Origin: Actinomycetales bacterium
GTDB taxonomy: Bacteria; Actinomycetota; Actinomycetes; Streptosporangiales; Streptosporangiaceae
NCBI GenBank assembly: GCA_044507605.1
Contig: JBIQJI010000008.1
Span: 26,395-90,394, forward strand
Length of the DNA stretch: 64,000 bases
Reading direction: 5' to 3'
The first letter of the stretch is position 1. The number at the start of each line of letters is the position of its first letter. Below are positions 9,153 to 35,033 of the stretch, piece after piece. The notes under the pieces are model-generated. The model was not told the DNA's origin. It did not search any database and saw only the letters and a list, made by a program, of their open reading frames with translations. The translations under genes were made by a program, and so were the position numbers.

Positions 9153-10085
9153 ATGACCGCGACGACATCGCCGCCTCAGGCGGCGACGCTCAGGGCGCGG
9201 GCGGGGCGCACGGCGCTCACGGCGCTCGCTCCGGCCGTGTGGGGCACCACGTACATCGTCACGACCGAACTGCTCCCCCAAGGCCATCCGATGTTCGCCG
9301 CGCTGGCCCGCTCCCTGCCTTCGGGCCTCGCGGCGCTGCTCCTCGCCCGCGCCCTGCCTCGCGGCTCCTGGTGGTGGAAATCGGCGGTGCTCGGCACCCT
9401 GAACATCGGCCTGTTCTTCCCGCTGCTCTTCGTCGCCGCCGAACGCCTGCCCGGCGGCGTCGCCGCCACGCTGGGCGCGATCCAGCCGATCATCGTGGCC
9501 GTCCTGGTGGTGGCCGTGCTGGGCGAACCGCTCTCCACCTGGCGGGTCGGCTGGGGCGTGGCCGGAGTGGCCGGGGTGGGCATGGTGGTGCTCGGCCCCG
9601 CCGCCGCCCTCGACTCCGCCGGAATCATCGCCGGGCTGGCCGCGTCGTTCTCCATGGCCATGGGCGTCGTGCTCACGAAACGGTGGGGACGCCCCCAAGG
9701 AGTGAGCGACGTGGCCCTCGCCGGGTGGCAGCTCGCGGCCGGCGGACTGGTGCTCCTGGTCCCCACCCTCGCGTTCGAAGGCGTGCCCGCCCACATCGAC
9801 GGTCGCGCCCTGACCGGGTACATCTGGCTCGGGCTGGCCGGCGGCCTCATCGCCTACATCCTCTGGTTCGCGGGCATCCGCCGCCTGCCCGTCACCGCCA
9901 CCTCACTGCTCGGGCTGCTCTCGCCCCTCGTCGCGGCGGCCCTCGGCGCGTTGCTGCTCGGACAGACCCTCACACCGGTGCAGGTGGCCGGCTTCGTGCT
10001 GGCGCTCGCCGCGATGCTGGCCGGCCAGCTCACACCCCCTGCCAGGAAGGCGGTGCCGGGGTCCGCGCCCGTACCCGGCCGGTGA
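9153..10085 (+). CDS. EamA/DMT family transporter
   Basis: Ten hydrophobic helices in two EamA halves (ALAPAVWGTTYIVTTELLP...; GYIWLGLAGGLIAYILWFAGIRRL). ATG at 9153 is in frame with ORF 9102..10085. Confidence 0.8.
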   Translation: MTATTSPPQAATLRARAGRTALTALAPAVWGTTYIVTTELLPQGHPMFAALARSLPSGLAALLLARALPRGSWWWKSAVLGTLNIGLFFPLLFVAAERLPGGVAATLGAIQPIIVAVLVVAVLGEPLSTWRVGWGVAGVAGVGMVVLGPAAALDSAGIIAGLAASFSMAMGVVLTKRWGRPQGVSDVALAGWQLAAGGLVLLVPTLAFEGVPAHIDGRALTGYIWLGLAGGLIAYILWFAGIRRLPVTATSLLGLLSPLVAAALGALLLGQTLTPVQVAGFVLALAAMLAGQLTPPARKAVPGSAPVPGR

Positions 10086-22162: not shown

Positions 22163-23296
22163 ATGTCGAACCCCCCGACTCCCAGCCTGCTCCCCGGCCC
22201 GCAGCCGGGCGCGGCGACCCACCGCAACCCGTACCTGCCTCCCGGGCAGGAGGAGGCGACGGCGAACGACCACGTCGCGATGCTGCGGCCGTGGCGCAAC
22301 CGGCTGCACCACGACTTCTACGTCGTCCTGGCGGCCGTCGCGGAGAGCCACGAGAGGTTCCGCGGCAGGTTCAGGGATCCGAACGTCGTGCTGGAGCAGG
22401 GGCAGCTCATCACGGTGACCGGTGCCCGGGGCACGGGAAAGAGCGCCTTGCTCCACCGGTTCGCGGGGCTGCTGGCCTACTCCAGCCCGAAATACTCGCG
22501 AGGCGATCCGGCGGACGTGTCCGGCGGGCTCCCCGGCCGGCTGGACGGCCAGATGCCGCTGATAGCGGACCTGAGCGAGGCCCACGCCCTGAACGTTGTC
22601 CCGCAGGACGCGACGCCGCTGGACGAAGGGCGGACGAAGGAGCAGAACATCTACGAAGCCGTGATCGCCGACCTCAAGAGCCAGCGCAAGCTCACCGAGG
22701 CCGAGGCCGACCGGCTGCGGACGGACGCCATCATCATCGACCAGCGGTGCCGGGCGGACGTGCCCCGTGGCTACGAGAAGCTGGCGGACGCCCTGGAGGA
22801 CAAGAACGCCGTCCTCGTGGTGCTGCTGCCGCCCATCGACAAGGTCGGCGAGTTGAACTTCTACCTGCGCATGGCCAGGAAGCGCCTGGTCTTCATGGCC
22901 GAAAGCGTCGCGCTGGCCGACCGTGCCGACCTGGCGAGCATGGTCAAGGGCATGCATTACTCCGCGTTCACCCATCTGCGCACCGGGATGCTGACGGCCG
23001 CGGACATCAGGCGGTTCATCGCCGCCCGGCAGAACCGCGCGGCTCAGGACGGCCGCCCGTGGGTGACGGTCACCGACGAGGTGATCGAGCAACTGTGCGT
23101 GCGCTTCGCCGGCCAGACGGTGGAGCAGCTCCGCGGCGCCCTCTGCGAGCTGTGCCACGTGGCGATCACGGGCTCGGGCGTCGTCGACATCGCGCTGTAC
23201 AGGGAGTACTCGCGCCAGGAGTTCTTCCTGGCCAGCGCGATGCGCAGGGTCCGGCGCGACGGCGGGCGCAAAGGCCCGAAGGGCACGAAGGGGTAG
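22163..23296 (+). CDS. Hypothetical P-loop NTPase (cassette gene 2)
   Basis: Walker A GARGTGKS (22421-22444). Walker-B-like AVLVVLLPPID. No further family is recognisable. Confidence 0.7.
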   Translation: MSNPPTPSLLPGPQPGAATHRNPYLPPGQEEATANDHVAMLRPWRNRLHHDFYVVLAAVAESHERFRGRFRDPNVVLEQGQLITVTGARGTGKSALLHRFAGLLAYSSPKYSRGDPADVSGGLPGRLDGQMPLIADLSEAHALNVVPQDATPLDEGRTKEQNIYEAVIADLKSQRKLTEAEADRLRTDAIIIDQRCRADVPRGYEKLADALEDKNAVLVVLLPPIDKVGELNFYLRMARKRLVFMAESVALADRADLASMVKGMHYSAFTHLRTGMLTAADIRRFIAARQNRAAQDGRPWVTVTDEVIEQLCVRFAGQTVEQLRGALCELCHVAITGSGVVDIALYREYSRQEFFLASAMRRVRRDGGRKGPKGTKG

Positions 23297-23308: not shown

Positions 23309-25567
23309 ATGCCGCGCATGCAGAATCCGTTTCCGGTGACACCCGCCCTGCGTCTGTCCCCTTTCCAGCTGACCACCCCGCCCGGCGCGGACTTCACGGT
23401 CGTGACGTCCGCGACCGAGGACGCCCGCGACTATGTGGAGAGCTACCTCGACGAGGCGGACCGATGGGAGGCCGAACGCGCGGCCGGGGCCGAGCCGCCG
23501 CCGCTGTCGGGCAGGGTGCTCGGGGTGTCCGGCGACTACGGGTCCGGGAAGACGCACCAGCTCATCGACATCGCGCGGCTCGTCCACGAGTCCGGTGCCC
23601 GGGAGCACGGCGCGAAGGTCCGGCTGCTCCTGCTGGACGCGCCTCGCGGCGGCATCGCTGCGGCCTACCGCGACCAGCTCATCGGCCAGTTCGACCCGGA
23701 CGCCATCGTCGAGCTGCTCAAGGACTACCACGGCGACACGGTCGCGGAGGGGGTGGAGAACGTACCGTTCCCGCCCGGCAGCGAAGCGGAGGACGGCAAG
23801 CGGGCCATCGCCCGCGGCCTGCGGCAGGGCGAGCTCGACCCCGAGGGCGTCACCCAGGCGTACCTGCTGTCGGCAAGCGACATCGAGGCGCGGCTGGCCA
23901 CACGGCTCAGGGGCGTCGCCGAACACTGGGAGTTCGCCAAGGCGCTCACGCTGATGCTCGACCCACCGTCGCGGGACGCCGCCTGGCGCTGGTTCCGCGG
24001 TGACGCCCCGGGGAAGGAGCTGCGCGACAACGGGATCACGGCGTCGATCGCCACCGAATCGATGGCCTACGACGCGCTCGCCGTCCTCGCGTTCCTGCAC
24101 GGGCGCCGGGGCCAACGCATCGTCTTCATCGTCGACGAGTTCGAGAAGCTGCTGGAGGACACGGAAGTCGGACGGCTCGCCTCGCTCCAGGCGTTCGAAC
24201 GGCTCGCAGGCGTCTTCATCGACGCCGGCTGCCTGCTCGTCTTCTCCGCGTCGAAACAGGCCATCGGCCGGCTGTCCGGCGGCCTGCGGGAGCGCACGTA
24301 TCACGTCTCGCTGGCGCCGCTCGACCGCGCGGAGACCGAGCGGCTGATCGAGGGGCACCTGTCCGGGCTGGTGTCGCGCGGGGACGAGGTCTTTCCCGAG
24401 CCCACGGTGACATGTGTCGGCGACCTCGGCGAGGGCAACCCCCGCCGCGTCATCTCGCTGTGCCGGGGCGGGTTCCGGCTGGCCGCCGCCAGGCCGGGGG
24501 GTGACGCGGAGGTGACGGTGACCGAGGACAACGTCCGCGCCTTCGCCCACCAGGAGTACGAGCGGTTCTCCCTGCCCGAGGCCGTGAGCGCCGCGCGCGA
24601 CATCCTGCAGGCCGACGGCTGGCCGCTGCCGGCCGACGACCACCTAGGGTCGCGCCCGCCGGTGGACTTCTGGGTCGACGCCGACGACGCAGTCATCGCG
24701 GTCATCGTGACCGACTCGCTGCTGAGCAGGCAGGACGCCGAAACGCTCTTCGGGCGCGTGAGCGACGCCGAGCTGCGCGCCTCACCACAGCCGTGTCAGA
24801 CCATCATCGTGGTCAACGGGCACGTCTCGCGGTCCGCTCGGGACGCCGTGGTCCAGCGCATCGGGCGCAACCCGGTGATCCATCAGGGCACGGGGTTCGG
24901 CAACGACTTCCGCGCGGCGCTCCTCGACGCCCACCGGCGGCTGCACAACCAGGCCCGGCGCGACGACCTCGCCAAAATCCGCATCACGGTGGAGCAGATC
25001 CTCCGGCAGCAGGAACGGACGCAGCACGCGATCGACAGGCTGCGACGGCGGAGCGGCGCGCGGACCGCCGCGGAGGGGGCCGACGCCGGACCCGGCCCGT
25101 CCCAGGCCGGGTCGGCGCTGCCGGGGCACGTCGACGACGACGCCGTGGCAGGGCTGCCCCGCGAGGTCCTCGACGAGTTCCGGCGCGCTCGGGACGAGAT
25201 CCCGGTCGACCGCGACATCGAGCACCCGTTCGACCACCTGTTCCGGCAGCCCGGCGACGGCGAGCGGACCGCTTCGCCCCGCCGGGCCATGCGCCGGGAC
25301 CGGTTCGAGGACATCGGCGTCATCTGGACGACTGAGCAGCTGGTGCTCGCGTTCCGCGACGCCGTCGCGCGCTGGTACGCGGCCGGGCCGCAGGACGGCA
25401 CCGGGAGAGGCGACGCCGAGCGGGAGGAGGAGCTGCGCCACATCTGCCGGATGTACGAGTCGGCCGCCGAGGACGTGCTGCCGCTTCTGTTCAGGAGGCA
25501 TGCCTACACCGGCACCGGCCCGCTGGAGCAACTGGGTTCGCGCGTGCGTGAGCTGCTGTTACGGTGA
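23309..25567 (+). CDS. Hypothetical AAA+/ORC-like P-loop NTPase with extra C-terminal domains (cassette gene 3)
   Basis: Walker [10 protein letters not shown] (23531-23557). Walker [13 protein letters not shown] (24116-24151). Sensor-1-like CLLVFSAS. Lid motif [16 protein letters not shown]. About 300 further residues of unknown fold. Confidence 0.75.
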
Positions 25568-26908
25568 CCTGCGGTCGAGGGCACAGCCGGGCTCGGCAGC
25601 GTCCTCAGCAGTGTTCTCGCAGGTGTCCTCGCAGGTGTCCTCGGCGATGGGTGCGCCGGTGGTCCCGGCGATGGGCTCGGCGATGGGCCCGCCTGCGGGT
25701 TCGGCGATGGGCTCGCCGGTGGGTTCGCCGAAGACGTAGCGGCCCCGGGGCCGGCCGGCGATGCGCTCGAGAATGTCCAGGCGGTCGTCCCACAGTGCGT
25801 TGGTCACGATGTGCAGCACGTTGACGGTCAGGATGGCCGGCGCGACGATGGCGACGGCGTCGGGGAAGCTCGGCTCCAGCGCCAGCGCCAGCAGGATCGC
25901 GGTGATGCCGTTCTGCTGCCCCAGCGCCAGGTAGACGCGGTCGGTGCGGGTCATGCGCCGGGCGATCAGCCACCCCACCACGATCTGCGCGCCGAAGGCG
26001 GCGGCGCCGAGCGCCAGGCCGGGAACGATCTGGACGCCGCCGAGCAGCAGCACACCGAGCGCGAACGTGGCGAGGGCGAACGCCACCGAGATGGCGCGGT
26101 CGAGGACGACCGGCTCGTCGAGCCGGAGGAACAGCCCGATCAGCGCGATGCCGAGCAGCAGGAACTGCCACGAGGCCACGCCCACCAGCAGCGCCACCAC
26201 GGCGATCGAGCCGGCGCGGACCCATGGCCGCGCCTGCAGCGGCGCCTGCGCGGGCCGGCGGCTCGCCCAGCGCCGCACGACCAGCAGGCCGAGCCACACG
26301 ACCAGCACGAAACCGAGGTTGCGGCCGATGTTCACGAGGTAGGAGCCGATCCCGGTGTCGCCGAGGACGGCCGCCGCCACGCCTCCCGCTCCGCCCGGTG
26401 TCGCGGCGAGCGCCCACGCCGAAAGGTAGACGGTGAGCAGCGCCGTGATGGGGTCGTCGAACGACGCCCACGCCAGCAGCAGCCCTTTACCGCGTTCGGA
26501 CATCCGGGAGCGGCCGAGCAGGGCGGACACCGAGAGCGGGTCGATCTGCGCGACGGCGATGCCCAGGACGAGGGCCGTGGGGTCGCGGAACAGGGCGTAC
26601 ATCACGCCGGCGATGAGCGCGGTCTTGAGCAGCACGCCGAGCGTGACCGCCAGCACCACCGTGCCCAGGTCACGGTAGACGGCGCGGGGGATGCCCGAGG
26701 CGCTGCCGTAGAGGCCTAGGGCGAGCAGGGTCGTGATGGCCTGCAGGTAGATCGGGCTGTCCGCCACCTCGCCCATGCCGGCGACACGCGCGACCGCGTA
26801 GCCGAGGACGGCGATGCCCACGGTGGCCGTGAGCCGCCGCGCGGCGGGCCCCGTGATGATCGTGCGCAGCGTGGGCACGTCGGCACCTCCGCCCGCCCCG
26901 TCCGTCAC
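25559..26908 (-). CDS. Cation:proton antiporter (Na+/H+ exchanger family)
   Basis: About 11-12 TM helices. Contains [18 protein letters not shown] (the DD motif region of the CPA family). Acidic repetitive C-terminal tail. Confidence 0.8.
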
Positions 26909-27048: not shown

Positions 27049-28107
27049 TTACGCGGTCCACGCTCGGCCGTTCTCGCCGGCGGTGAATATTTCGCGGGCG
27101 CCGGTCAGCAGGTGCCGGAAACGCAGATCGGCGCGCCTGACCGCGTGTTGATGAAGAGTCACCCCCAGTGCCAGGCCGGGAAGCGATGGCAGCACATGCA
27201 CATAAATAGCGCCTTGCTGCACATCAAGGACCAGCGACTCGATGGTTTCACAGGCCATCGCGTGTAACGCGTGCGCGACCTGGGCGAGCCCTTTGGGCAA
27301 CGACCGGCCGAGCCGGCAATAATGGTCGCGCTGCGTCTGGTACGCCTGTGCGTCGGTCAGCCAGCCGCCGAACGGCTCCCCGAACCACGGCTGCTCGGCC
27401 AGCTCCGCATCGGCGAGGACATCGGCCGAGTACAGCAGCCGCGGCCCCTGGAAAAAGGCGACGTAATGCAGGTCCTCGACGTTCAGCGCCGCCTCGCACA
27501 AGGCCGCCATGCGGTCCCGGGCGTCGCCGGCGAGCCCGTCCGCGTGCACGGTCACGTGGGCGGTCCTCGTCACCGGTGGCGGGAGGGGGTCCCCCCAGCC
27601 GCCGGGATACTCCTCGTCCAGGCGGTAGTGGCGGCGGATGTCGGTGACCGCGTAGCAGGCCTGCTTGTCCATTTCGTCGACCATCTCGCGGACGGCGGGC
27701 CCGGCCGCGGCGGAGCCGCCCCGCCTGAGCGCGGTCAGGTACTCGTCGGGGCGCACCCTGCCGCAGTGGACGCCCTCGGCGCCGGTCGTCACCACGGTGC
27801 GCATCAGCTCTCCACTGCGCAGCTCCGCCAGGTCCCGGTCGAACATCTCGGCCTGGATGACGAGCTGGCGCAACGCCGCCTCACACTCGTGCGGCGCGGG
27901 CAGTTCTCCGGACGACGGCGGCCGGAGGAAAAACTCGCGGAACCCGTTGTAGAAGTAGCCGGTGAGATCCGCCACCCCGCTGTCGATCAGCCGCTCCCGG
28001 CAGATCCCCTGGTGTGAGGTGTAATCGCGATAGGCCACGATCTCCTGGTGATCCTCCCAGCCCTCGCCGCCGGGGTCGCTGATCGGCACCGTGCCGATGT
28101 CGGGCAT
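27049..28107 (-). CDS. Hypothetical cytoplasmic protein, co-directional partner of the STAND gene
   Basis: High-GC3 ORF 64 nt downstream of the 28172 stop. No motif is recognised. The C-terminal segment IESLVLDVQQGAIYVHVLPSLPGLALGVTL is faintly Roadblock/LC7-like. Confidence 0.65.
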   Translation of the reverse strand: MPDIGTVPISDPGGEGWEDHQEIVAYRDYTSHQGICRERLIDSGVADLTGYFYNGFREFFLRPPSSGELPAPHECEAALRQLVIQAEMFDRDLAELRSGELMRTVVTTGAEGVHCGRVRPDEYLTALRRGGSAAAGPAVREMVDEMDKQACYAVTDIRRHYRLDEEYPGGWGDPLPPPVTRTAHVTVHADGLAGDARDRMAALCEAALNVEDLHYVAFFQGPRLLYSADVLADAELAEQPWFGEPFGGWLTDAQAYQTQRDHYCRLGRSLPKGLAQVAHALHAMACETIESLVLDVQQGAIYVHVLPSLPGLALGVTLHQHAVRRADLRFRHLLTGAREIFTAGENGRAWTA

Positions 28108-28171
28108 CGCTCCGCTCCATTCCGCCTGCCGGGGCCGTGCCGTGCGTCCTCGCAGGGACGATCGATGGGGG

Positions 28172-31100
28172 TCAGTATCCGGGCACCTCGATCTCGATGT
28201 CGCGCCGAACGGGCTTGGCCTCGGCGCCGCCGGGCGTGCCGTGGCGTGGGCGCGCCTGCGGCGGCTTCGAGTCGAGCTGCGACAGGGTGTCCCGCAGGTT
28301 CTCGCGCGCGATGCGCAGATCGCGCGGATCGCGGATCTCGGCGGCGCCGAACAGCCACTGCAGTCGTTCGCAGGCGACCTGCTCCAGGTCGCGCGCGGCC
28401 CGCGGGCCGTTCACGAGCAGCTCGGTGTTGGCGTGGTTGACGGTGGCGGTGAGCGTGACGGGATGCCACTCGCCGAGCCGCTCGGCCAGCCCGCGCCGGC
28501 TCTCCTCGCCGTGCCGCAGCGCGTCGTACCGCCGGCCCTCCTTGCGCAGGTAGACCGCGAGGTTCGCCTGGCACATGAAGGTGAACGCGTGGTCGCCGAG
28601 GATGGCGCGGAACCGTTCGAGGCAGTGGCTCGCGTGCTCGACGGCCCCGGAGTAGTCGTCCTGCGCGTGCAGGTCGGCGGCCACGCTGGCGAGGCAGCGC
28701 AGCGTGAGGATGTCGTCGTCGCCGAGCAGGCGGCGATACTGCTCCAGCACCTCGGCATTACGGCTCCGCGACTCCGCCACCTTGCCGAGCCCGCGCTCGG
28801 TGACCGCGAGGCCGTACTCGATGCGCAACCGGTCGAGGCTGCGCGTGCCGAAGGGTTCCTTCTCCCGCCGCACCAGCCGGGCGAGAGCGCGTCTCAGCCA
28901 CAGGTGCGCCTCTTCGTACTCGCCGAGGCAGCGCAGGGTGCCGGCCATGTTGACGACGGTCCACCAGGCGTCGTCGTCGTCTTCGCCGGCCACCTGCCGA
29001 GTGCGTTCGAACCGCTCCCGCGCCTGCTTCAGGGCCGCGGTGTAGTCGCCGTTGAGGTGCATCGAGGCGGCGAGGTTGTTGAGCGCCCGGCCCGTCATGC
29101 GGTGGTCGGCCCCCAGGGCCTCGCGCAGGTTCTTGACGGCCCGGTCGTCCCAGCCGAACGCCTCCTGGAAGGCGCCGCGGGCCCGCAGCACGATGGCGTA
29201 GCGCGACATCGTGGCCCACAGCTGCGGGTGCCGGTCGTGCAGGATGCGCCGGTGCCAGTGCCACGCCGTGCGGATGTGGGTGAGCGCCTGGTCGTACGCG
29301 CCGAGTTTGCGGCAGGCCTCGGCGAGCTCCATGAGCAGGTCGACCTTGACCAGCAGCCTGCGCGCGAGGGCGTCATCGGGCTGCTCCGGCCGCCTGAGCA
29401 GCGCGTCGGCGTCGGGCTCCCAGCTCCGCGCGCACGAGTCACCGATCTGCCGGGCCCGCTCCCAGGCGGTCTTGTCGGCCACCTCGACAAGGCGGCGGAC
29501 CTGGTCGACGATCCATCGACGGACCGCCGGGTCGGTGCTCGCCCCGGCGTAGTCCGCGTCGATGTGCACGCTGCTCTCCATGACGTCCTGGTCCCATACC
29601 GCAGCCTGCTCCGACCCCGCCGGGGGGCGTGTCTGGGCCGGGCGGTGCGCCGCGAGCACGCGGTAGATCGCGGTCCGCTCCGTCTCGGCCTGCTCGGCGG
29701 TCATGTCGGCCCGGACGAACTCCGCGATGACACGATGCATCTTCAGCCGCCCGCCGCGAGCGAAGGAGACGGCGGCCAGGCCGAACCGGTCGATGGCCCA
29801 CAGCACGGCGTCGACCAGCACCGGGTAGTGGAAACCGACGCCGTGATCGGCGAGCTCGTCGCACATCGCCCGGGAGTTCAACCGGTCGACCTCGACGCCG
29901 TCGGGCGACAGGAACGAGCACATGCGCAGCACCCGCCGACCCGCTTCGCCGCCGGGGCCGGCGAGCAGCCGCTCCATCGCCAGCCGCACCGTCGCCTGGT
30001 ACACCGGCACCTGGTGCACCGGCGGATGGACCGGGGCGGCCCGCCCCGCGGGCTGACGCCTTCTCACGGAGCCGGCCTCTTGCCGGAATCTGGTCACGAA
30101 TTCGTCGACCGTCTTCCCCGCCTGGGCGGCCAGCAGCTCGTTGTCCTCGCGCAGCCCGCTCAGCCGGTCGAGCACCCACCCCGCGGCGAGCTCGATGGCG
30201 AGCGGATAGCCCTCCACCGTGCCGGCCAGCAGCTCGGCGGCGGAGTCGGGGATGAGCTCCCGGGGAAACGTGATGCCGAGGTGCGGCCAGGTCTGCTGCT
30301 TGTACCGGATCAGCTCCAGGCTCTCGGCCGTGGTCAGCGGCCTGACCTCGATGTGACGAGCGCGCTCGCTGGGCTCGACCTCGCGGGCGGTGATCACGAC
30401 GTCACCGGTGCCCTCACGGGGGATCAGGCCGTCGAGCGCGCGCAGATCCTCGACGTTGTCGTAGACCAGCAGCCAGCGCATCTCGCCGTCGTGTTTCAGC
30501 CTGTCGAGCACGGTGTCGACGAGGTCGGTGCCCCTGGGCAGCTCCAGCCGCGCGGCGAGCCCGCCGAGCCCGGCACGGACGGTCTGCTCCGTCTCGGCCG
30601 CCACCCACCACACCACGTCGTACGCGCCGGCGTAGCGGTGGGCGTATTCGAGGGCGATCTGGCTCTTGCCGACTCCCGCCACGCCGCGCAGGGTGGCCCA
30701 GCGGACCGAGCCGCCATCGCCGGTCAAAAAGTCGCGCAGCTCCTGGATCACCGCGTCGCGGCCGACGAACGACGGGTTGCTGCCCGGCAGCCGCTCGATG
30801 TCGGGTGGCCGGGGGAACCTGCGTCTGCCGGTGGGCGGGAAGTCGCCGGACCGCCCGGGCGATGGCGGCCCGCCGATGCGCAGCCCTTGGTACAGCCGGT
30901 TGCGGGCGTCGCCTTCGGGCAGGTCGGTCAGGTCGAGCTCGTCCAGGCCGTCGGGCGGATCGGGGAAGCCGGCGCGGTCGACCCGCACGGCCAGCACCTT
31001 CGCACGCTGGATCAGGTCGGCGAGCCGCCGTTTCAGCCGCCGGTCGAGCCCGGGCGGGGAGACGAGCAGGACGGCGGTGTGCGGGTCGTTCGCCACCCAG

Positions 31101-32134
31101 GCGAATCCGGCGACGGCGATCTCCTCGACCTGTACGCCGGCGCGCCCGACCTGTTCGGCGATCCACTCGGCCCAGGCCTCGTAGCGGGGGGTGTGGACCA
31201 CGAGCACGCGGTCGATCGCGGAGACCCGGCCGTCGGTGAGCACCTCGACGAGCCGCTCGCACGCCTCTCGGACACCGCCCGGCCCCCCCGTCGGCTCCTG
31301 GAGCACCGCGGGGACGTCGGAGAAGGAGGACGCCTCGTAGGGCATCTGAGGGAGGCCGGGGGCATCGCCGGAGGCGCCGGCCGGCCCGGCGATGGGGCCG
31401 AACCGGCGCAGGGCCAGGTCGCGCGGCTCGTCGACGTTCGGGACGGACCCGTCGACCCGCATGGCCAGCGGGACGACGCGCGGCGGGTGCGGGCCGGCGG
31501 CGCGGATGTCGGCGGCGAACCCGGCGGGCTCGTCGACGTAGTCGCGGGTCAGCGAGAAACAGACGACCGCCTGGTCGCCGAGCCCCGCGATCCAGGCCGT
31601 CACATCGTCCGACCAGCCCACCGGCGCATCGATAAGTACGTAGTCATATCCGGACGTTTGCAAATATGACCGAAATGTCGTTATCCATCCCGAATCAACG
31701 GCCAAGCGCAGCGATTCGGACGAGGATCGGGACGCCGAGCCGTAGGTCAGCAGATCGATGGCGCCACGGTCGGTCACGTCGGTGAGATTGAGCCGGATCG
31801 GGTCGGACCGGAGTTCGAGCGCCGCGGGATCGCGATCGTTGCGCTCGATCAGGTCGGACAGCCCGCGGCCGCGAGGATCGGGCTCGTCGGGCAGATAGCG
31901 CCGCAGATAGCGATGGAAGTCGCGGGACCGTGGCTCGCAATCGACGACCAGGACCCGCATGCCCGCCCTGGCCAAAATGACCGCCGCGTTGGCGACGGTG
32001 GTCGTGCGGCCGACGCCGCCCCGGGCCGAACAGAAAATCAGGACCCGGCCAGGACCGCTGGAATCGGCTCCCATCGTCGCTCCCATCGCGTCATCGCGCA
32101 CCCGCGCCGGTCGAGGTGGGCGGAAATGCCGCAA
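28172..32134 (-). CDS. FxsT-like STAND protein: ParA/MinD-like (KGGVGR-variant) domain + TIR-like domain + NB-ARC NTPase + TPR array
   Basis: - aa 28-230: ParA-like (VLIFCSARGGVGRTTTVANAAVILARAGMRVLVVDCEP ... DYVLIDAP).
- aa about 307-390: TIR-like (VLVVHTPRYEAWAEWIAEQVGRAGVQVEE...AVLLVSPP).
- aa about 455-660: NB-ARC (FVGRDAVIQELRDFL...LRGVAGVGKSQIALEYAHRYAGAYDVVWWVAAE...WLLVYDNVED...GYPLAIELAAG).
- aa about 940-1250: TPR (LNNLAASMHLNGDYTAALKQ...).
- The first codon at 32134 is TTG. ATG alternatives lie at 32086 and 32074. Confidence 0.85.
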   Translation of the reverse strand: MRHFRPPRPARVRDDAMGATMGADSSGPGRVLIFCSARGGVGRTTTVANAAVILARAGMRVLVVDCEPRSRDFHRYLRRYLPDEPDPRGRGLSDLIERNDRDPAALELRSDPIRLNLTDVTDRGAIDLLTYGSASRSSSESLRLAVDSGWITTFRSYLQTSGYDYVLIDAPVGWSDDVTAWIAGLGDQAVVCFSLTRDYVDEPAGFAADIRAAGPHPPRVVPLAMRVDGSVPNVDEPRDLALRRFGPIAGPAGASGDAPGLPQMPYEASSFSDVPAVLQEPTGGPGGVREACERLVEVLTDGRVSAIDRVLVVHTPRYEAWAEWIAEQVGRAGVQVEEIAVAGFAWVANDPHTAVLLVSPPGLDRRLKRRLADLIQRAKVLAVRVDRAGFPDPPDGLDELDLTDLPEGDARNRLYQGLRIGGPPSPGRSGDFPPTGRRRFPRPPDIERLPGSNPSFVGRDAVIQELRDFLTGDGGSVRWATLRGVAGVGKSQIALEYAHRYAGAYDVVWWVAAETEQTVRAGLGGLAARLELPRGTDLVDTVLDRLKHDGEMRWLLVYDNVEDLRALDGLIPREGTGDVVITAREVEPSERARHIEVRPLTTAESLELIRYKQQTWPHLGITFPRELIPDSAAELLAGTVEGYPLAIELAAGWVLDRLSGLREDNELLAAQAGKTVDEFVTRFRQEAGSVRRRQPAGRAAPVHPPVHQVPVYQATVRLAMERLLAGPGGEAGRRVLRMCSFLSPDGVEVDRLNSRAMCDELADHGVGFHYPVLVDAVLWAIDRFGLAAVSFARGGRLKMHRVIAEFVRADMTAEQAETERTAIYRVLAAHRPAQTRPPAGSEQAAVWDQDVMESSVHIDADYAGASTDPAVRRWIVDQVRRLVEVADKTAWERARQIGDSCARSWEPDADALLRRPEQPDDALARRLLVKVDLLMELAEACRKLGAYDQALTHIRTAWHWHRRILHDRHPQLWATMSRYAIVLRARGAFQEAFGWDDRAVKNLREALGADHRMTGRALNNLAASMHLNGDYTAALKQARERFERTRQVAGEDDDDAWWTVVNMAGTLRCLGEYEEAHLWLRRALARLVRREKEPFGTRSLDRLRIEYGLAVTERGLGKVAESRSRNAEVLEQYRRLLGDDDILTLRCLASVAADLHAQDDYSGAVEHASHCLERFRAILGDHAFTFMCQANLAVYLRKEGRRYDALRHGEESRRGLAERLGEWHPVTLTATVNHANTELLVNGPRAARDLEQVACERLQWLFGAAEIRDPRDLRIARENLRDTLSQLDSKPPQARPRHGTPGGAEAKPVRRDIEIEVPGY

Positions 32135-32259
32135 TCACCTGACGTCACGGGCCGCGGGCCTGGTGAGCCCCGGCTGAAACGCAAGCGACCCGAGGCCCTC
32201 CTCCGGGTAGGACCCGTTCTCAGAGTAGGAGGGCCGCCCGGGGCGGTCAACGAATGTTT

Positions 32260-32442
32260 TCATTTATCTTGGGGCGGCTGACTCGACTGCACCAGTGGTG
32301 CCGCCGAACCACATTCCAGGTCGTGCAGGATCCGGTCGAGCGCGCCGTTCAGCGCCCGTTTCGACAGTCCGGCGGTTCCGTACAGCCCGATACCCGCGAC
32401 ATCGACTATGTCGGACTCTAGATCGTATCTAGGGGAACCCAT
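32260..32442 (-). CDS. Candidate 60-aa FxSxx-COOH-like precursor peptide (variant C-terminus)
   Basis: ATG start, directly upstream of and co-directional with the FxsT-like gene. The leader-like pattern SDIVDVAGIGL...LSKRALNGALDRIL resembles my recollection of FxsA leaders. The C-terminus is ...PLVQSSQPPQDK, with VQSSQ where FxSxx would be and 5 extra residues. GC3 is lower than in neighbouring genes, with rare codons AGA, CTA and ATA. Confidence 0.45.
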   Translation of the reverse strand: MGSPRYDLESDIVDVAGIGLYGTAGLSKRALNGALDRILHDLECGSAAPLVQSSQPPQDK

Positions 32443-32610
32443 ACCGATGACCTGCCTTTTCCCCGACGTGAAACTCCCGCCGAAAGCATGCGCATCCGGC
32501 TAATGCATGCCATGCGGCATTAACCTATCATCGATCGCGGACCTATCACCATTGCACCGCTCCCCCGGTCACCCGCCGTTCCTCCCTGCCAGAGAAAGGG
32601 GTGGCACTAT

Positions 32611-34014
32611 ATGCCGCATTTGGGAAGGCGCGGCGAGAACGAACCCGGGCGCGCTCGGCCCGGCCCTCCCCCACCCCGCCACGGCCTTCGCCAGCAGGTG
32701 TTCGACGACCTCGCCCGGGGCGGCGGCGGAGCCGAGGCGGCGCGGCTGCTCGCCACCGCCGAGTTCAGCAAGCATCTGCTGCTGCTCCGGCTCGTCGTCG
32801 CCGAGGCGGAGACGGTCCGGCACCCGCAGGCGGCGGAGACCGCCGACGCCTACGACACGCTGGCCGCGCTGCAACGGCTGGCGCCGGGCCCGGTCGAGGC
32901 GGTGATCCGCTACCCGGCGGTGGGCGTCTGGGCGTACCGGACCATCCAGGCGCTGCGCGGCCCGCGACCCCTCGACGCGCGTCCCGCCCGGCTCACCGCG
33001 ATCGCCGCCAGCGCGGCGATCAGCGGCCGGACGTCGGCCACGCTGCGGGTGCACGCCGACGGTCCCGTCGTCGCCCTGCCCGGCGTCGGGCTGGCCGTGC
33101 TGCCGGGGTCCGCGACCGGCGGGACGGTCGCGCTGCGCACCGGACCCGACGGCGCCCTGCTGTCCTCGGGCGGCGCACGCGTCCACCTGCCCGACGAGCC
33201 GGACACCGACGGCGAAGGCTGGTCGGGCACGCGCGTCCTGTCGCTGCCGCACGACGGACGGCCCGATCCGCTGCGGCTCGCCGTCGACGACCTCGACCCG
33301 TACCGGTTCCCCAGCGAGCTCGTCCACGGGCGGCTGTCGGCGGAGCAGTCCCGCCGCTTCACCGGGGCGGTCGCCGCCGGATGGGAGCTGCTGGCCAGGC
33401 ACCACGCGGAGGTGACCGCCGAGGTGCCGGCCGTCATCACCACGCTCACCCCGCTCACGGCACCGCGCGGAGCCATCGTCAGCGCGTCGTCGGGAGCGGC
33501 GTTCGGCTGCGTCGCCCTCTCCGAGCCGCCCGACGACCGCGCCGCCGCCGTCACGTTCGCGCACGAGCTGCGGCACGCCAAGCTGTCGGCCCTGATGGAC
33601 CTGTTCCCGCTGGTCCGGGCGGCGCCGCACGAGCTGTTCTACGCGCCCTGGCGCGAGGACCCGCGGCCGCTGTCCGGCCTGCTCCACGGCGCGTACGCCT
33701 TCGCCGGGGTCGCCGCCTTCTGGGGCCGGCAGCGGCACATCGAGACCAGCGGGCGGGCGGTGCTGGAGGCCAACGTCCGGTTCGCCCGATGGCGCGACGC
33801 CGCGCTGGGGGTGGCGCGGTTCCTGGCCGGGTCCGATCGGCTGACCGATGCCGGGCGGCGCTTCGCCACCGGCCTGCTGGCGGAACTGGAGGAATGGCAC
33901 CGCGCGGACGTGCCCGCCGAGGCCGCCGCCCGGGCCCGCGACGAGGCGGCCCGGCACCTGGCCCGCTGGACGAGCCGGCACGGGCCGCCGCCGAACGCGC
34001 CGTACCCCGGCTGA
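32611..34014 (+). CDS. HExxH-motif domain protein (aKG-HExxH peptide beta-hydroxylase / FxsC-like family)
   Basis: HELRH at 33562-33576 within FAHELRHAKLSAL. N-terminal LLATAEFSKHLLLLRLVV and overall length fit the stand-alone HEXXH-domain family seen in FxSxx loci. Divergent from the peptide gene. Confidence 0.7.
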   Translation: MPHLGRRGENEPGRARPGPPPPRHGLRQQVFDDLARGGGGAEAARLLATAEFSKHLLLLRLVVAEAETVRHPQAAETADAYDTLAALQRLAPGPVEAVIRYPAVGVWAYRTIQALRGPRPLDARPARLTAIAASAAISGRTSATLRVHADGPVVALPGVGLAVLPGSATGGTVALRTGPDGALLSSGGARVHLPDEPDTDGEGWSGTRVLSLPHDGRPDPLRLAVDDLDPYRFPSELVHGRLSAEQSRRFTGAVAAGWELLARHHAEVTAEVPAVITTLTPLTAPRGAIVSASSGAAFGCVALSEPPDDRAAAVTFAHELRHAKLSALMDLFPLVRAAPHELFYAPWREDPRPLSGLLHGAYAFAGVAAFWGRQRHIETSGRAVLEANVRFARWRDAALGVARFLAGSDRLTDAGRRFATGLLAELEEWHRADVPAEAAARARDEAARHLARWTSRHGPPPNAPYPG

Positions 34015-34049: not shown

Positions 34050-34670
34050 TCAGGAGACGGGGCCGGTCGAGTTCACCTGGGCGGCGCGGTGCACGACGTG
34101 GTCGACCATGCCGTACTCCTTGGCCTCCTCGGCGGTGAACCAGCGGTCGCGGTCCCAGTCCCGCTCGACCTGCTCGCGGCTCTGGCCCGTGTGGTGGGCG
34201 ATGCGCTCGGCCGTGGTGCGCTTGACGTACGTCATCTGCTCGGCCTGGATCTTGATGTCGCTGGCGGTGCCGCCGAGGCCGCCGGAGGGCTGGTGCATCA
34301 TGATGCGGGCGTGGCGCAGGGCGTAGCGGCGGCCGGGGGTGCCGGCGCACAGCAGCACCTGGGCCATCGAAGCGGCCAGGCCGATGGTCACGGTGCTGAT
34401 CGGGTTGGGCAGGAACTGCATGACGTCGTACATCGCCATGCCTGCGGTCACCGACCCGCCGGGCGAGTTGATGTAGAGGAAGATGTCGCGCCGGTCGTCC
34501 TCGGCCGACAGCAGCAGGAGCTGGCCGCACACGCGGTTGGCGATCTCGTCGTCGATCTCGCTGCCGATGAAGATGATGCGCTCGCTCAGCAGCCGCTCGT
34601 AGACGGACTCCTGGGGCCTGCGGCCGATCTCGGTGACGCGGCTGTGCGGGGTGAACGGGCTGGGTTCCAC
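34050..34670 (-). CDS. clpP: ATP-dependent Clp protease proteolytic subunit (solitary paralog)
   Basis: YERLLSERIIFIGSEIDD, YINSPGGSVTAGMAMYD, catalytic Ser in GLAASMA, His in IMMHQP, and Asp in DRDRWFTAEEAKEYGMVD. Confidence 0.9.
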   Translation of the reverse strand: MEPSPFTPHSRVTEIGRRPQESVYERLLSERIIFIGSEIDDEIANRVCGQLLLLSAEDDRRDIFLYINSPGGSVTAGMAMYDVMQFLPNPISTVTIGLAASMAQVLLCAGTPGRRYALRHARIMMHQPSGGLGGTASDIKIQAEQMTYVKRTTAERIAHHTGQSREQVERDWDRDRWFTAEEAKEYGMVDHVVHRAAQVNSTGPVS

Positions 34671-34685
34671 GGGCCCTCCTGACGT

Positions 34686-34718
34686 ACGTTCTGTACATAA
34701 TCGCTAGAACGTACAGAA
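34686..34718. promoter_or_regulatory. Interleaved inverted repeats overlapping a -10-like CATAAT upstream of the antitoxin gene
   Basis: ACGTTCT (34686-92) pairs with AGAACGT (34706-12). TTCTGTAC (34689-96) pairs with GTACAGAA (34711-18). CATAAT lies at 34696-34701, 33 nt before ATG 34734. Confidence 0.45.
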
Positions 34719-34733
34719 TGCTAGCATGGTCGC

Positions 34734-35033
34734 ATGACACGTGAGATCCCGGTGACGCAGGCACGCGCCGAGCTGGCCGAACTGGTCAACCGCGTGGCCT
34801 ACAGCGGGGAGCGGGTCGTGCTCACCCGCCATGGCCGGCCGCTCGCCGCGCTCGTGTCCTCCGACGACCTCGAACTGCTGGAGGCGCTGGCCGAGCAGCG
34901 CATCGCCGTGACCTCCATCGGCCCCGGCGAGCAGGGCGGCCCGCCCGCCCGCGACGACGCCCCGCTGCGCATCGTCGCCGAGCACCGCCCGAGCGGCTTC
35001 GAGCGCCCCGGCGGCTTCGGCATCGGCACCTGA
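34734..35033 (+). CDS. Type II toxin-antitoxin system Phd/YefM family antitoxin (no cognate toxin adjacent)
   Basis: MTREIPVTQARAELAELVNRVAYSGERVVLTRHGRPLAALVSSDDLELLE is the canonical Phd/YefM N-terminal domain. Confidence 0.8.
   Translation: MTREIPVTQARAELAELVNRVAYSGERVVLTRHGRPLAALVSSDDLELLEALAEQRIAVTSIGPGEQGGPPARDDAPLRIVAEHRPSGFERPGGFGIGT

What the first reader, a model, noticed from the sequence alone, without database searches (positions are those of the whole stretch)
27049..34014. FxSxx-type locus without its radical SAM maturase: leader-like peptide, HExxH protein, giant STAND protein and an orphan partner
**What the sequence shows.** Four genes sit around a low-GC divergent promoter region (32443-32610):
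- a 60-aa peptide gene (32260-32442, minus strand);
- immediately downstream, a 1320-aa ParA-like/TIR-like/NB-ARC/TPR protein (28172-32134);
- a 352-aa orphan protein (27049-28107);
- divergently, an HExxH protein (32611-34014).

**From family knowledge (recollection).** The FxSxx-COOH systems of Actinobacteria combine four parts:
- a small FxSxx-terminated precursor;
- a radical SAM/SPASM cyclophane-forming maturase (FxsB);
- an HExxH (aKG-dependent hydroxylase) protein;
- an NB-ARC/TPR protein (FxsT).

This locus has no radical SAM/SPASM ORF. The flanking genes are a cation antiporter and ClpP. The aromatic residue of the C-terminal motif is also missing from the peptide.

**Inference.** This is a coherent reduced or rewired variant whose chemistry and biological role are not described. 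It could be a hydroxylated peptide signal sensed by a STAND/TIR protein, or a conflict system. The role of FxsT-type proteins is, to my knowledge, unknown.
Basis: partly seen in the sequence, partly recalled or inferred. Interest (0 to 1): 0.85.

Follow-up and report, generated by a model that had tools for sequence, protein, structure and literature searches.

The report
FxSxx peptide system that lost its maturase
This is a real but derived copy of a known actinobacterial peptide-plus-STAND-ATPase gene module that has lost its radical SAM cyclase and the aromatic residue that enzyme needs; it is a rare natural variant of a described system, not a new kind.

Summary
The four ORFs exist as described, and no radical SAM gene lies anywhere in the 64-kb window.

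**Family membership**
- The large protein is a bona fide FxsT (NF040586, 556 bits; cutoff 300).
- The divergent gene carries an aKG-HExxH beta-hydroxylase domain (TIGR04267, 164 bits; cutoff 40).
- The 60-aa peptide fails the curated FxsA models. An HMM built only from precursors of related loci still finds it as the single hit among 854 window ORFs (E = 6e-8).

**Comparison with 80 related loci**
- FxsB sits beside the HExxH gene in 78 of 79 assessable loci.
- About ten "type B" loci share the window's gene order. The closest relatives outside the window's lineage all have FxsB and an aromatic core (HHQSS, GFQS).
- The window has no FxsB and reads LVQSS, so the loss is secondary. A metagenomic relative shares it, ruling out an assembly artefact.

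**Corrections to the finding**
- The "orphan" is not an orphan. It belongs to a family of about 200 clusters and is a tandem Roadblock/LC7 (MglB-like) protein.
- The module is larger than reported: it also includes a polytopic membrane protein and two P-loop NTPases.
- Kaur et al. 2020 already described these "peptide-processing systems", including rSAM-less types and the AP-ATPase with an inactive MinD/ParA domain.

Verdict: a new variant of a known kind, of moderate interest.

The parts
22163..23296 (+). p377: P-loop NTPase (GTGKS), the first of two tandem NTPase genes on the left edge of the module
   Evidence: Weak AAA_16/ABC_tran hits. Homologues lie upstream of c6 in L020, L062 and L082, where the flank is long enough to see them. 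Membership of the module is inferred from synteny.
23309..25567 (+). c6: 752-aa P-loop NTPase (GSGKT Walker A, DEFE Walker B) with sub-threshold NACHT and ivWA similarity
   Evidence: Cluster c6 is present in the type B loci, in L088/L089 and in the P0007 contig. It also occurs in two type A loci.
25559..26908 (-). c14: polytopic membrane protein, last gene of the peptide-FxsT operon; a candidate exporter or membrane effector
   Evidence: Multiple hydrophobic spans. It is 48-54% identical to orthologues in five type B loci. No Pfam, NCBIfam, PADLOC or PDB match.
   Evidence: 201 representative clusters match at E <= 1e-3. AlphaFold2 model with 38 sequences: pLDDT 88, pTM 0.88. Foldseek against PDB: MglB, Roadblock and Ragulator at probability 1.0, target TM about 0.7 per half. 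It lies immediately downstream of the long FxsT in all type B loci.
28172..32074 (-). Long-form FxsT: STAND protein with MinD/ParA-like, TIR-like, NB-ARC and TPR regions
   Evidence: NF040586 FxSxx_TPR: 556.5 bits, cutoff 300. Colinear over 1300 aa with the L088 orthologue at 35% identity.
31544..32047 (-). MinD/ParA-like domain with a variant Walker A (GGVGRT, Lys replaced by Arg), probably inactive
   Evidence: AAA_31: 38.8 bits, cutoff 27. NF047398 KGGVGR-variant model: 50.5 bits, below its cutoff of 90. Motif read. Kaur et al. predict this domain to be inactive (PMC7159879).
30890..31210 (-). TIR-like segment (WAEW motif)
   Evidence: TIR_2: 18.8 bits, E = 0.002, covering profile positions 1-118 of 122, below the cutoff of 28. 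Six of eight orthologous segments hit TIR_2, best E = 2.9e-7. No invariant acidic residue.
30176..30751 (-). NB-ARC (AP-ATPase) module with intact Walker A (GVGKS) and Walker B (LLVYDNV)
   Evidence: PF00931: 27.2 bits, cutoff 23.5. Motifs read.
28253..29344 (-). TPR array, the presumed ligand-sensing region
   Evidence: TPR_12 at 1e-31 and TPR_10 at 1e-21.
32260..32442 (-). Precursor peptide: FxsA-like leader, non-aromatic core APLVQSSQPPQDK
   Evidence: An HMM built from 7 type B precursors hits only this ORF among 854 (28 bits, E = 6e-8). It is aligned with other precursors. It fails TIGR04268 and PF27839. It is 85% identical to P0004, and all 9 differences fall in residues 1-36 (P = 0.006).
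32443..32610 (.). Low-GC divergent intergenic region. FxsB lies between the precursor and HExxH genes in related loci. It contains the only two TGATAGGT copies in the window (32523-32530 and 32541-32548).
   Evidence: No sigma-70-like promoter was found. The octamer is not conserved in the other loci.
32611..34014 (+). Stand-alone aKG-HExxH-type peptide hydroxylase (HELRH at 33562-33576)
   Evidence: TIGR04267: 163.8 bits, cutoff 40. Full-length match to PDB 22nu_A (E = 5e-29) and to ChlH 8s5f. It deviates at 6 of 85 columns that are at least 90% conserved; FxsB-linked homologues show a median of 4 and a range of 0-16.

Best explanation
**What it is (shown)**
- The locus is a "type B" member of the actinobacterial FxSxx-COOH / "standalone peptide-processing" systems.
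- In related genomes this module is built as follows:
  - an operon of precursor peptide, long FxsT (inactive MinD/ParA-like, TIR-like, NB-ARC, TPR), tandem Roadblock protein and, usually, a polytopic membrane protein;
  - a divergent FxsB (rSAM/SPASM cyclophane synthase) and aKG-HExxH hydroxylase pair;
  - two P-loop NTPase genes on the far side.
- In the window's lineage FxsB has been cleanly deleted. The precursor has lost the aromatic residue that FxsB cross-links (H/F/Y-x-S has become V-Q-S). All other genes remain intact.

**How it probably works (inferred)**
- The remaining system probably still functions.
- The HExxH enzyme would oxidise the linear core, by beta-hydroxylation of Gln, Ser or Asp, or possibly by oxidative C-terminal trimming.
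- The peptide would serve as the cognate ligand or signal for the TPR sensor of the FxsT STAND ATPase.
- The Roadblock protein would act as an NTPase-regulating partner. The membrane protein would act as exporter or effector.
- This would make the system resemble the naturally rSAM-less RxD and acidic peptide-processing systems.
For: **Identity**
- FxsT scores 556 bits and the HExxH domain 164 bits, both above the curated cutoffs.
- The leader is homologous to type B precursors: a unique hit at E = 6e-8. The same HMM recovers canonical FxsA peptides ending in GFTSSI or GFQSAL.

**Secondary loss of FxsB**
- FxsB (TIGR04269: 471 bits, cutoff 370) is adjacent to the HExxH gene in 78 of 79 assessable loci.
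- The nearest HExxH homologues outside the window's lineage (P0007 at 51%, P0010 at 48%) lie in loci with the window's gene order plus FxsB and an FxSxx-model peptide.
- The window contains no FxsB.
- The same FxsB-less order occurs in a relative at 78-90% identity and in independent assemblies.

**Core change**
- Related cores read HHQSS, GFQS, GFQN, AFQA and FNDY. The window reads LVQSS.

**Retention of function**
- The HExxH protein keeps the family's conserved residues: 6 deviations in 85 conserved columns, within the range for FxsB-linked enzymes.
- The NB-ARC P-loop is intact.
- The last 24 residues of the peptide are identical in the relative, while the leader differs at 9 sites (P = 0.006).

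**Precedents**
- HExxH enzymes not fused to an rSAM domain have been characterised: PflC/PosC hydroxylate Gln runs and trim the C-terminus (PMC12636437).
- rSAM-less HExxH/peptide/AP-ATPase systems are described (PMC7159879, section 24). L071 is an example found here.
- The c12 fold is Roadblock/MglB.
Against: - There is no expression or chemical evidence.
- The peptide fails both curated FxsA models even at E <= 10, while six control precursors pass.
- The peptide's GC3 is low: 0.66, against 0.87-0.95 for its neighbours.
- The FxsB-less state is seen in only two lineages. No DNA of the relative could be fetched, so dN/dS could not be computed.
- For the one fused Fxs-like enzyme studied (ChlBH), hydroxylation depended on a pre-installed cyclophane (PMC12636437). 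The HExxH enzyme here might therefore be idle on a linear peptide.
- The rest of the genome could not be searched for a trans-acting FxsB.
- The output of FxsT is unclear:
  - the MinD/ParA domain has Lys replaced by Arg in its P-loop;
  - the TIR-like segment has no invariant acidic residue;
  - no PADLOC defence model matches.
Confidence: 0.62

Rival explanations
1. Decaying remnant. Loss of FxsB disabled the peptide arm. The peptide and HExxH genes are drifting towards loss, and FxsT with its partners works, if at all, independently of them.
For: - The FxsB-less state is very rare: 1 of 79 assessable loci, plus this lineage.
- The peptide falls below both curated FxsA models.
- The peptide's GC3 is 0.66.
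- ChlH-type hydroxylation needed a cyclophane (PMC12636437).
- The opposite partial decay exists: L085 has FxsB plus an HExxH stub covering only residues 24-60.
Against: - All ORFs are intact in two lineages that have diverged to 78-90% protein identity.
- The HExxH protein shows no excess loss of conserved residues.
- The peptide core is perfectly conserved while the leader varies (P = 0.006).
- The aromatic position changed together with the loss of the enzyme, which looks like adaptation rather than random decay.
Confidence: 0.22
2. FxsB is encoded elsewhere in the genome and acts in trans, so the pathway is complete and the locus is merely split.
For: - Several genomes carry two or more Fxs loci: Microtetraspora (L013, L039), Actinomadura pelletieri (L063, L064) and Nonomuraea ceibae (L078, L083).
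- Only 64 kb of the source genome could be examined.
Against: - The core has no Phe, Tyr or Trp for a cyclophane. The only His lies in the leader-like RILHDLE stretch.
- FxsB is adjacent to its HExxH partner in 78 of 79 assessable loci.
- The peptide no longer matches the FxsA models.
Confidence: 0.08
3. The 60-aa product is not an enzyme substrate. It is an unmodified small protein that binds FxsT directly as adaptor or inhibitor, and the HExxH protein acts on another target.
For: - The peptide gene is co-directional with FxsT and immediately upstream of it in every type B locus.
- Nothing in the sequence proves that the peptide is modified.
Against: - The leader is homologous to precursors that co-occur with FxsB and HExxH genes in the related loci and pass the curated FxsA model.
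- The HExxH gene keeps its divergent position next to the peptide gene in both FxsB-less lineages.
Confidence: 0.08

Closest known systems
FxSxx-COOH system (NCBIfam TIGR04268 FxsA, TIGR04269 FxsB, TIGR04267 aKG-HExxH, NF040586 FxsT)
   Same: FxsT and the HExxH domain score above the curated cutoffs. The leader peptide is homologous. The gene order is identical to that of the type B Fxs loci.
   Different: There is no FxsB. The peptide is below the FxsA cutoff. It has no aromatic residue in the core, and its C-terminus extends past the motif.
Standalone actinobacterial peptide-processing systems of Kaur, Burroughs, Iyer and Aravind 2020 (PMC7159879, section 24)
   Same: The core is an HExxH "MPTase" plus a small, fast-evolving peptide, coupled to an AP-ATPase/TPR protein that carries an extra inactive MinD/ParA-like domain. 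That paper proposed the peptide to be a toxin or signal.
   Different: The paper links the FxSxx type to an rSAM/SPASM gene, which is lost here. Its rSAM-less RxD and acidic types are fused to vWA ternary systems, unlike this locus. The Roadblock and membrane partners are not mentioned in its main text.
aKG-HExxH RiPP enzymes PflC/PosC and BpmH (PMC12636437)
   Same: They belong to the same enzyme family (IPR026337/TIGR04267) and were characterised without a fused rSAM domain. PflC/PosC beta-hydroxylate Gln residues, and the window's core is Gln-rich (QSSQPPQ).
   Different: They come from Pseudomonas and biphenomycin clusters with MNIO and other partners and no STAND protein. The window has no ARMD-type cleavage motif. 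Sequence relatedness to them was not measured here.
ChlBH/ChlH fused rSAM-HExxH enzyme (PDB 8s5f) and PDB 22nu
   Same: The HExxH catalytic region is homologous: 8s5f at E = 2e-8 and 22nu_A at E = 5e-29 over the full length.
   Different: ChlH acts after cyclophane formation by its fused rSAM domain. The window enzyme has no rSAM partner.
MglB / Roadblock-LC7 / Ragulator NTPase regulators
   Same: Each half of c12 adopts the Roadblock fold (Foldseek probability 1.0, target TM about 0.7). As a tandem it mimics the Roadblock dimer that binds small NTPases.
   Different: No sequence-level Pfam match. The partner NTPase is unknown. It has not previously been tied to Fxs systems, as far as the papers searched show.

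Membership tests
FxSxx-COOH system (Fxs) | FxsT: NB-ARC/TPR protein matching NF040586 above its cutoff | tested here: met
   556.5 bits against a cutoff of 300, covering residues 450-1294.
FxSxx-COOH system (Fxs) | HExxH protein carrying the TIGR04267 aKG-HExxH beta-hydroxylase domain | tested here: met
   163.8 bits against a cutoff of 40. The HELRH motif and 79 of 85 conserved columns are retained.
FxSxx-COOH system (Fxs) | FxsB radical SAM/SPASM cyclophane synthase (TIGR04269) in the locus | tested here: not met
   No hit in 64 kb (best 27 bits). It is present in 78 of 79 assessable related loci.
FxSxx-COOH system (Fxs) | Precursor matching the FxsA models (TIGR04268, cutoff 28; Pfam PF27839) | tested here: not met
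   No hit at E <= 10 for the window peptide or its relative. Six control precursors score 33-49 bits. No Pfam hit. A sub-family HMM does detect leader homology (28 bits, E = 6e-8).
FxSxx-COOH system (Fxs) | Aromatic residue in a three-residue motif (F/Y/H-x-S) near the C-terminus | tested here: not met
   The core reads APLVQSSQPPQDK, where relatives have an aromatic residue.
Standalone peptide-processing system (Kaur et al. 2020) | HExxH "MPTase" plus a small variable peptide, with a linked AP-ATPase/TPR protein that carries an inactive MinD/ParA-like domain | tested here: met
   AAA_31 at 38.8 bits (cutoff 27), with Walker A GGVGRT. NB-ARC and TPR hits. Description in PMC7159879, section 24.
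TIR-domain STAND effectors | TIR domain above the Pfam threshold with a catalytic Glu | tested here: inconclusive
   The window segment scores 18.8 bits against a cutoff of 28. Six of eight orthologous segments hit TIR_2, best E = 2.9e-7. No invariant acidic residue. The single-sequence AF2 model is unusable (pLDDT 45).
Roadblock/LC7 (MglB-like) proteins | alpha-beta-beta-alpha-beta-beta-beta-alpha fold similar to MglB or Ragulator subunits | tested here: met
   Model with pLDDT 88 and the pattern repeated twice. Foldseek probability 1.0 to 3t12_B, 9jue, 1j3w and 3kye. No sequence-model hit.
Known anti-phage defence systems (PADLOC 2.0) | Significant match of any module protein to a defence-system model | tested here: not met
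   Only a 36-residue P-loop match for FxsT (PDC-M28B) and marginal mad8 hits.

The most novel reading that the evidence does not exclude
The lineage is a natural "cyclophane knockout" that stayed functional. If so, the HExxH enzyme has switched to a linear, non-aromatic core, doing hydroxylation only or a PflC-like oxidative C-terminal trimming. The peptide-FxsT(STAND)-Roadblock-membrane protein axis would then work without the cross-link. That would identify the peptide/HExxH/STAND trio, not the triceptide ring, as the functional heart of Fxs systems. It would also offer a minimal system for finding what FxsT senses.
Probability: 0.3. Interest if true: 0.6.

Novelty: new variant of a known kind. 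Interest (0 to 1): 0.45.

Why it matters
Fxs/triceptide clusters are widespread in filamentous actinobacteria, yet their biological role and the ligand of the FxsT STAND ATPase are unknown.

**What this locus offers**
- A lineage that discarded the cyclophane synthase but kept the precursor, the hydroxylase, FxsT and their partners is a ready-made natural experiment. It separates ring formation from the presumed signalling or conflict function.
- It is a simple test case for aKG-HExxH activity on a linear peptide.

**What the survey adds**
- The long-FxsT ("type B") module is larger than described. It includes a tandem Roadblock/MglB-like protein and a conserved membrane protein.
- Many canonical loci place a ThsA-like SIR2 gene directly after FxsA. 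This strengthens the conflict-system reading.

None of this overturns current understanding. It refines a system already described by comparative genomics.

Tried and rejected
- **DNA of the relative.** Two metagenome scans were run for the 85-90% relative, to compute dN/dS.
  - The first found nothing.
  - The second returned only an unrelated FxsB + HExxH-stub locus, L085.
  - The look-up of encoding contigs listed the relative's genes but gave no DNA.
- **Source organism.** The listing of cluster members returned no names.
- **FxsT N-terminus structure.** The single-sequence model had pLDDT 45 and was not used.
- **Profile searches against PDB.** The c12, TIR-like and c14 profiles gave nothing by sequence.
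- **PADLOC.** No meaningful hits.
- **Expression signals.** The promoter/terminator scan found no sigma-70-like promoter in the divergent region. The only terminator-like matches lie inside the HExxH and FxsT ORFs. The RNA fold of the peptide-FxsT spacer is not significant (z = -0.9).
- **TGATAGGT repeat.** It is not conserved in the related loci.
- **Neighbourhoods of the nearest c12 homologues.** P0125 and P0126 were uninformative.
- **Literature.** The search for FxsT/FxsA terms returned unrelated papers. The Morishita 2024 paper is not held.
- **Rejected: assembly artefact.** Independent assemblies agree.
- **Rejected: FxsB remnant in the intergenic region.** There is no tblastn signal there, and only 168-255 bp are available.
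Full report
**1. Observation**

The four ORFs are present at the stated coordinates:
- a 60-aa peptide at 32260-32442 (-);
- a 1320-aa ORF at 28172-32134 (-), whose start is probably Met21 at 32074, as gene callers chose in independent assemblies;
- a 352-aa ORF at 27049-28107 (-);
- a 467-aa HExxH protein at 32611-34014 (+).

GC falls to 0.61 across the divergent region. GC3 frame analysis supports all the large ORFs as coding, with GC3 of 0.87-0.95. The peptide has GC3 of 0.66.

**2. Family tests**

- The large protein matches NF040586 (FxSxx-COOH system TPR protein) at 556.5 bits against a cutoff of 300.
- The divergent protein matches TIGR04267 (aKG-HExxH-type peptide beta-hydroxylase) at 163.8 bits against a cutoff of 40.
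- The divergent protein is also a full-length homologue of PDB 22nu_A (E = 5e-29) and matches ChlH 8s5f.
- The peptide and the 352-aa protein hit nothing in NCBIfam or Pfam.

**3. Comparative survey**

The HExxH protein has hundreds of stand-alone homologues of 420-450 aa at 40-50% identity, mostly in Streptosporangiales. An alignment of 19 of them was used to scan one genome per species, giving 80 loci with 10-kb flanks.

Results from tblastn and all-against-all clustering:
- Almost every locus has an FxsT gene next to the HExxH gene.
- A CxxxCxxC protein of about 415 aa lies beside the HExxH gene in 78 of the 79 loci where the region can be assessed. In most of them it lies directly upstream on the same strand.
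- That protein is FxsB (TIGR04269: 471 and 461 bits, cutoff 370).
- The window contains no FxsB anywhere in its 64 kb. With 53 FxsB queries the best hit was 27 bits.

**4. Two architectures**

Type A is the majority. It has a short FxsT (NB-ARC/TPR only) convergent with the HExxH gene. A canonical FxsA lies beyond it, often followed by a SIR2 gene.

Type B shares the window's order. It was found in L013, L017, L020, L029, L038, L062, L063, L065 and L082. It was also found in L088/L089 and the P0007 contig through the look-up of encoding contigs. The order is:
- a P-loop NTPase pair (p377, c6) on one strand;
- divergently, FxsB then HExxH.

The genes beyond the HExxH gene differ from locus to locus, so the conserved block is the functional unit. 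The window has every element of this block except FxsB.

**5. The peptide**

- An HMM built from seven type B precursors, without the window's, scores the 60-aa ORF at 28 bits (E = 6e-8). It is the only significant hit among all 854 six-frame ORFs of the window; the next best has E = 1.1.
- The same HMM recovers the canonical FxsA peptides of type A loci, which end in GFTSSI, GFQSAL and similar.
- The window peptide and its metagenomic relative get no hit from TIGR04268 even at E <= 10. Two type A and four type B precursors pass at 33-49 bits against a cutoff of 28.
- Pfam PF27839 marks the precursors of L088 and of the P0007 contig, but not the window's.
- In the alignment, related cores carry an aromatic residue before x-S/N/E: GFQS, GFQN, AFQA, YQS, HDS, and NDY. 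L088 has HHQSS. The window reads LVQSS followed by QPPQDK.
- The cross-linkable residue has therefore gone together with the enzyme that uses it.

**6. Loss is secondary and not an artefact**

- The closest HExxH homologues outside the window's lineage (51% and 48% identity) lie in complete type B loci with FxsB.
- A relative from a JGI metagenome has HExxH 90%, peptide 85% and c12 78% identical to the window. Its HExxH gene is directly divergent from the peptide, followed by FxsT, c12 and a c14-like gene. It has no rSAM.
- Two separate read-set assemblies reproduce the window's junction.

**7. Is the remainder still under selection?**

- The window HExxH protein departs from the consensus at 6 of 85 columns that are at least 90% conserved among FxsB-linked homologues. 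Those homologues themselves show a median of 4 and a range of 0-16.
- HELRH and the YAPWREDPRP block are intact.
- The NB-ARC Walker A and B motifs are intact.
- Between the two FxsB-less lineages, all nine peptide differences lie in residues 1-36, and the last 24 residues are identical (hypergeometric P = 0.006).
- dN/dS could not be computed, because the relative's DNA was not retrievable.

**8. The partners**

*c12.* It is not an orphan. An exhaustive HMMER search finds 201 representative clusters at E <= 1e-3. An AlphaFold2 model built with 38 family members (pLDDT 88, pTM 0.88) shows the alpha-beta-beta-alpha-beta-beta-beta-alpha pattern twice. Foldseek matches each half to MglB, archaeal Roadblock, Ragulator subunits and a Streptomyces Roadblock/LC7 protein at probability 1.0. 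Roadblock dimers are classic regulators of small NTPases. c12 is therefore a plausible regulator of one of the module's NTPase domains; this is an inference.

*FxsT N-terminus.* It contains a MinD/ParA-like domain (AAA_31: 38.8 bits, cutoff 27) whose Walker A is GGVGRT. It also contains a TIR-like segment. That segment is sub-threshold in the window (18.8 bits) but is recognised in 6 of 8 orthologous segments (best E = 2.9e-7). No acidic residue is invariant in it.

*c14.* It is a polytopic membrane protein without any family match.

*p377 and c6.* They are P-loop NTPases with only faint AAA_16, NACHT and ivWA similarity.

*PADLOC.* It recognises none of these proteins.

**9. What is already known**

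- Kaur, Burroughs, Iyer and Aravind (eLife 2020; PMC7159879, section 24) described "peptide-processing systems":
  - The core is a zincin-like HExxH protein plus a small, fast-diverging peptide. It is always coupled to an AP-ATPase/TPR protein.
  - They distinguished FxSxx, RxD, acidic and FtsH-associated peptide types. An rSAM/SPASM gene accompanies the FxSxx type.
  - They noted standalone actinobacterial versions whose AP-ATPase carries an inactive MinD/ParA-like domain.
  - They proposed that the peptide is a toxin or a signal.
- L071 in the present survey is such an rSAM-less case. It combines a VMAP-MoxR-vWA~AP-ATPase ternary system, a leader-like peptide and an HExxH gene.
- The HExxH family is now known to be aKG/Fe(II) hydroxylases. 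ChlH acts on a pre-formed cyclophane.
- BpmH and PflC/PosC were characterised without a fused rSAM domain. PflC/PosC hydroxylate Gln runs and oxidatively remove a C-terminal tetrapeptide (PMC12636437).

**10. Verdict**

- It is a secondary-loss variant of a described system. It is neither an undescribed four-gene system nor one with an orphan partner.
- The most likely state is a still-functional system in which the peptide is at most hydroxylated and works with the STAND protein. A decaying remnant is the main rival.
- Interest is moderate.
  - The locus offers a natural dissection of the role of the cyclophane.
  - The survey adds the Roadblock and membrane partners to the type B module.
  - The survey also shows ThsA-like SIR2 genes after FxsA in type A loci.

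Noticed in passing
L005 14045-15336; also L008-L011, L015, L021, L024, L026, L035, L036, L043, L046, L049, L051, L057, L058, L061, L070, L081, L084: In many canonical (type A) Fxs loci, the FxsA precursor gene is followed directly by a SIR2_2-domain gene. That gene matches the Thoeris ThsA SIR2 models (PF13289 at 7e-28; PADLOC ThsA at 1e-17). This links Fxs peptides to an NAD-depleting type of effector.
   Followed up: partly
L085 8769-11575 (metagenome contig Ga0210390_10002452): This is the opposite partial loss. An intact FxsB is followed by only a stub of the HExxH gene (residues 24-60) and then FxsT.
   Followed up: partly
L071 8488-18532 (Umezawaea endophytica): This HExxH locus has no rSAM. 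It holds a Gig2-like oxygenase (PF07350, 3e-136) and a leader-like small ORF at 9808-10017. The HExxH protein is 585 aa. A 1523-aa AP-ATPase/TPR protein with a long N-terminal extension follows, then a MoxR-like AAA+ gene and a further 490-aa gene. This resembles the rSAM-less VMAP ternary type of Kaur et al.
   Followed up: partly
window 32135-32263 (-): Gene callers placed a 42-aa ORF in the peptide-FxsT spacer in two assemblies, overlapping the peptide's stop codon (ATGA). It is not called in the metagenomic relative and is probably spurious. The spacer of about 185 bp has a similar length in the relative.
   Followed up: partly
window 32523-32548: The only two copies of TGATAGGT in the 64-kb window lie 18 bp apart in the divergent promoter region. 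About 0.24 copies are expected by chance. A GCATGgCATGC palindrome lies just downstream on the minus strand. This may be an operator, but it is not conserved in the related loci.
   Followed up: partly
window 34050-35033: A ClpP paralogue (206 aa) sits divergently next to a Phd/YefM antitoxin gene, immediately right of the HExxH gene. In the metagenomic relative, an HTH_31/MLTR_LBD regulator and an MFS transporter are inserted between the HExxH gene and this pair.
   Followed up: no
window 32611-32697: The first 29 codons of the annotated HExxH ORF are absent from the 90%-identical relative, which starts at the aligned Val30. Other homologues also align only from residue 22-24 onwards. The true start may be the GTG at 32698, which would widen the intergenic region to about 255 bp.
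   Followed up: partly
L030 3841-4110: Another leader-HMM hit (E = 0.0013) has a core without any aromatic residue (…DPLLGGSPKGPSGSGPPPEPR). The contig starts inside the HExxH gene, so the presence of FxsB cannot be assessed.
   Followed up: no
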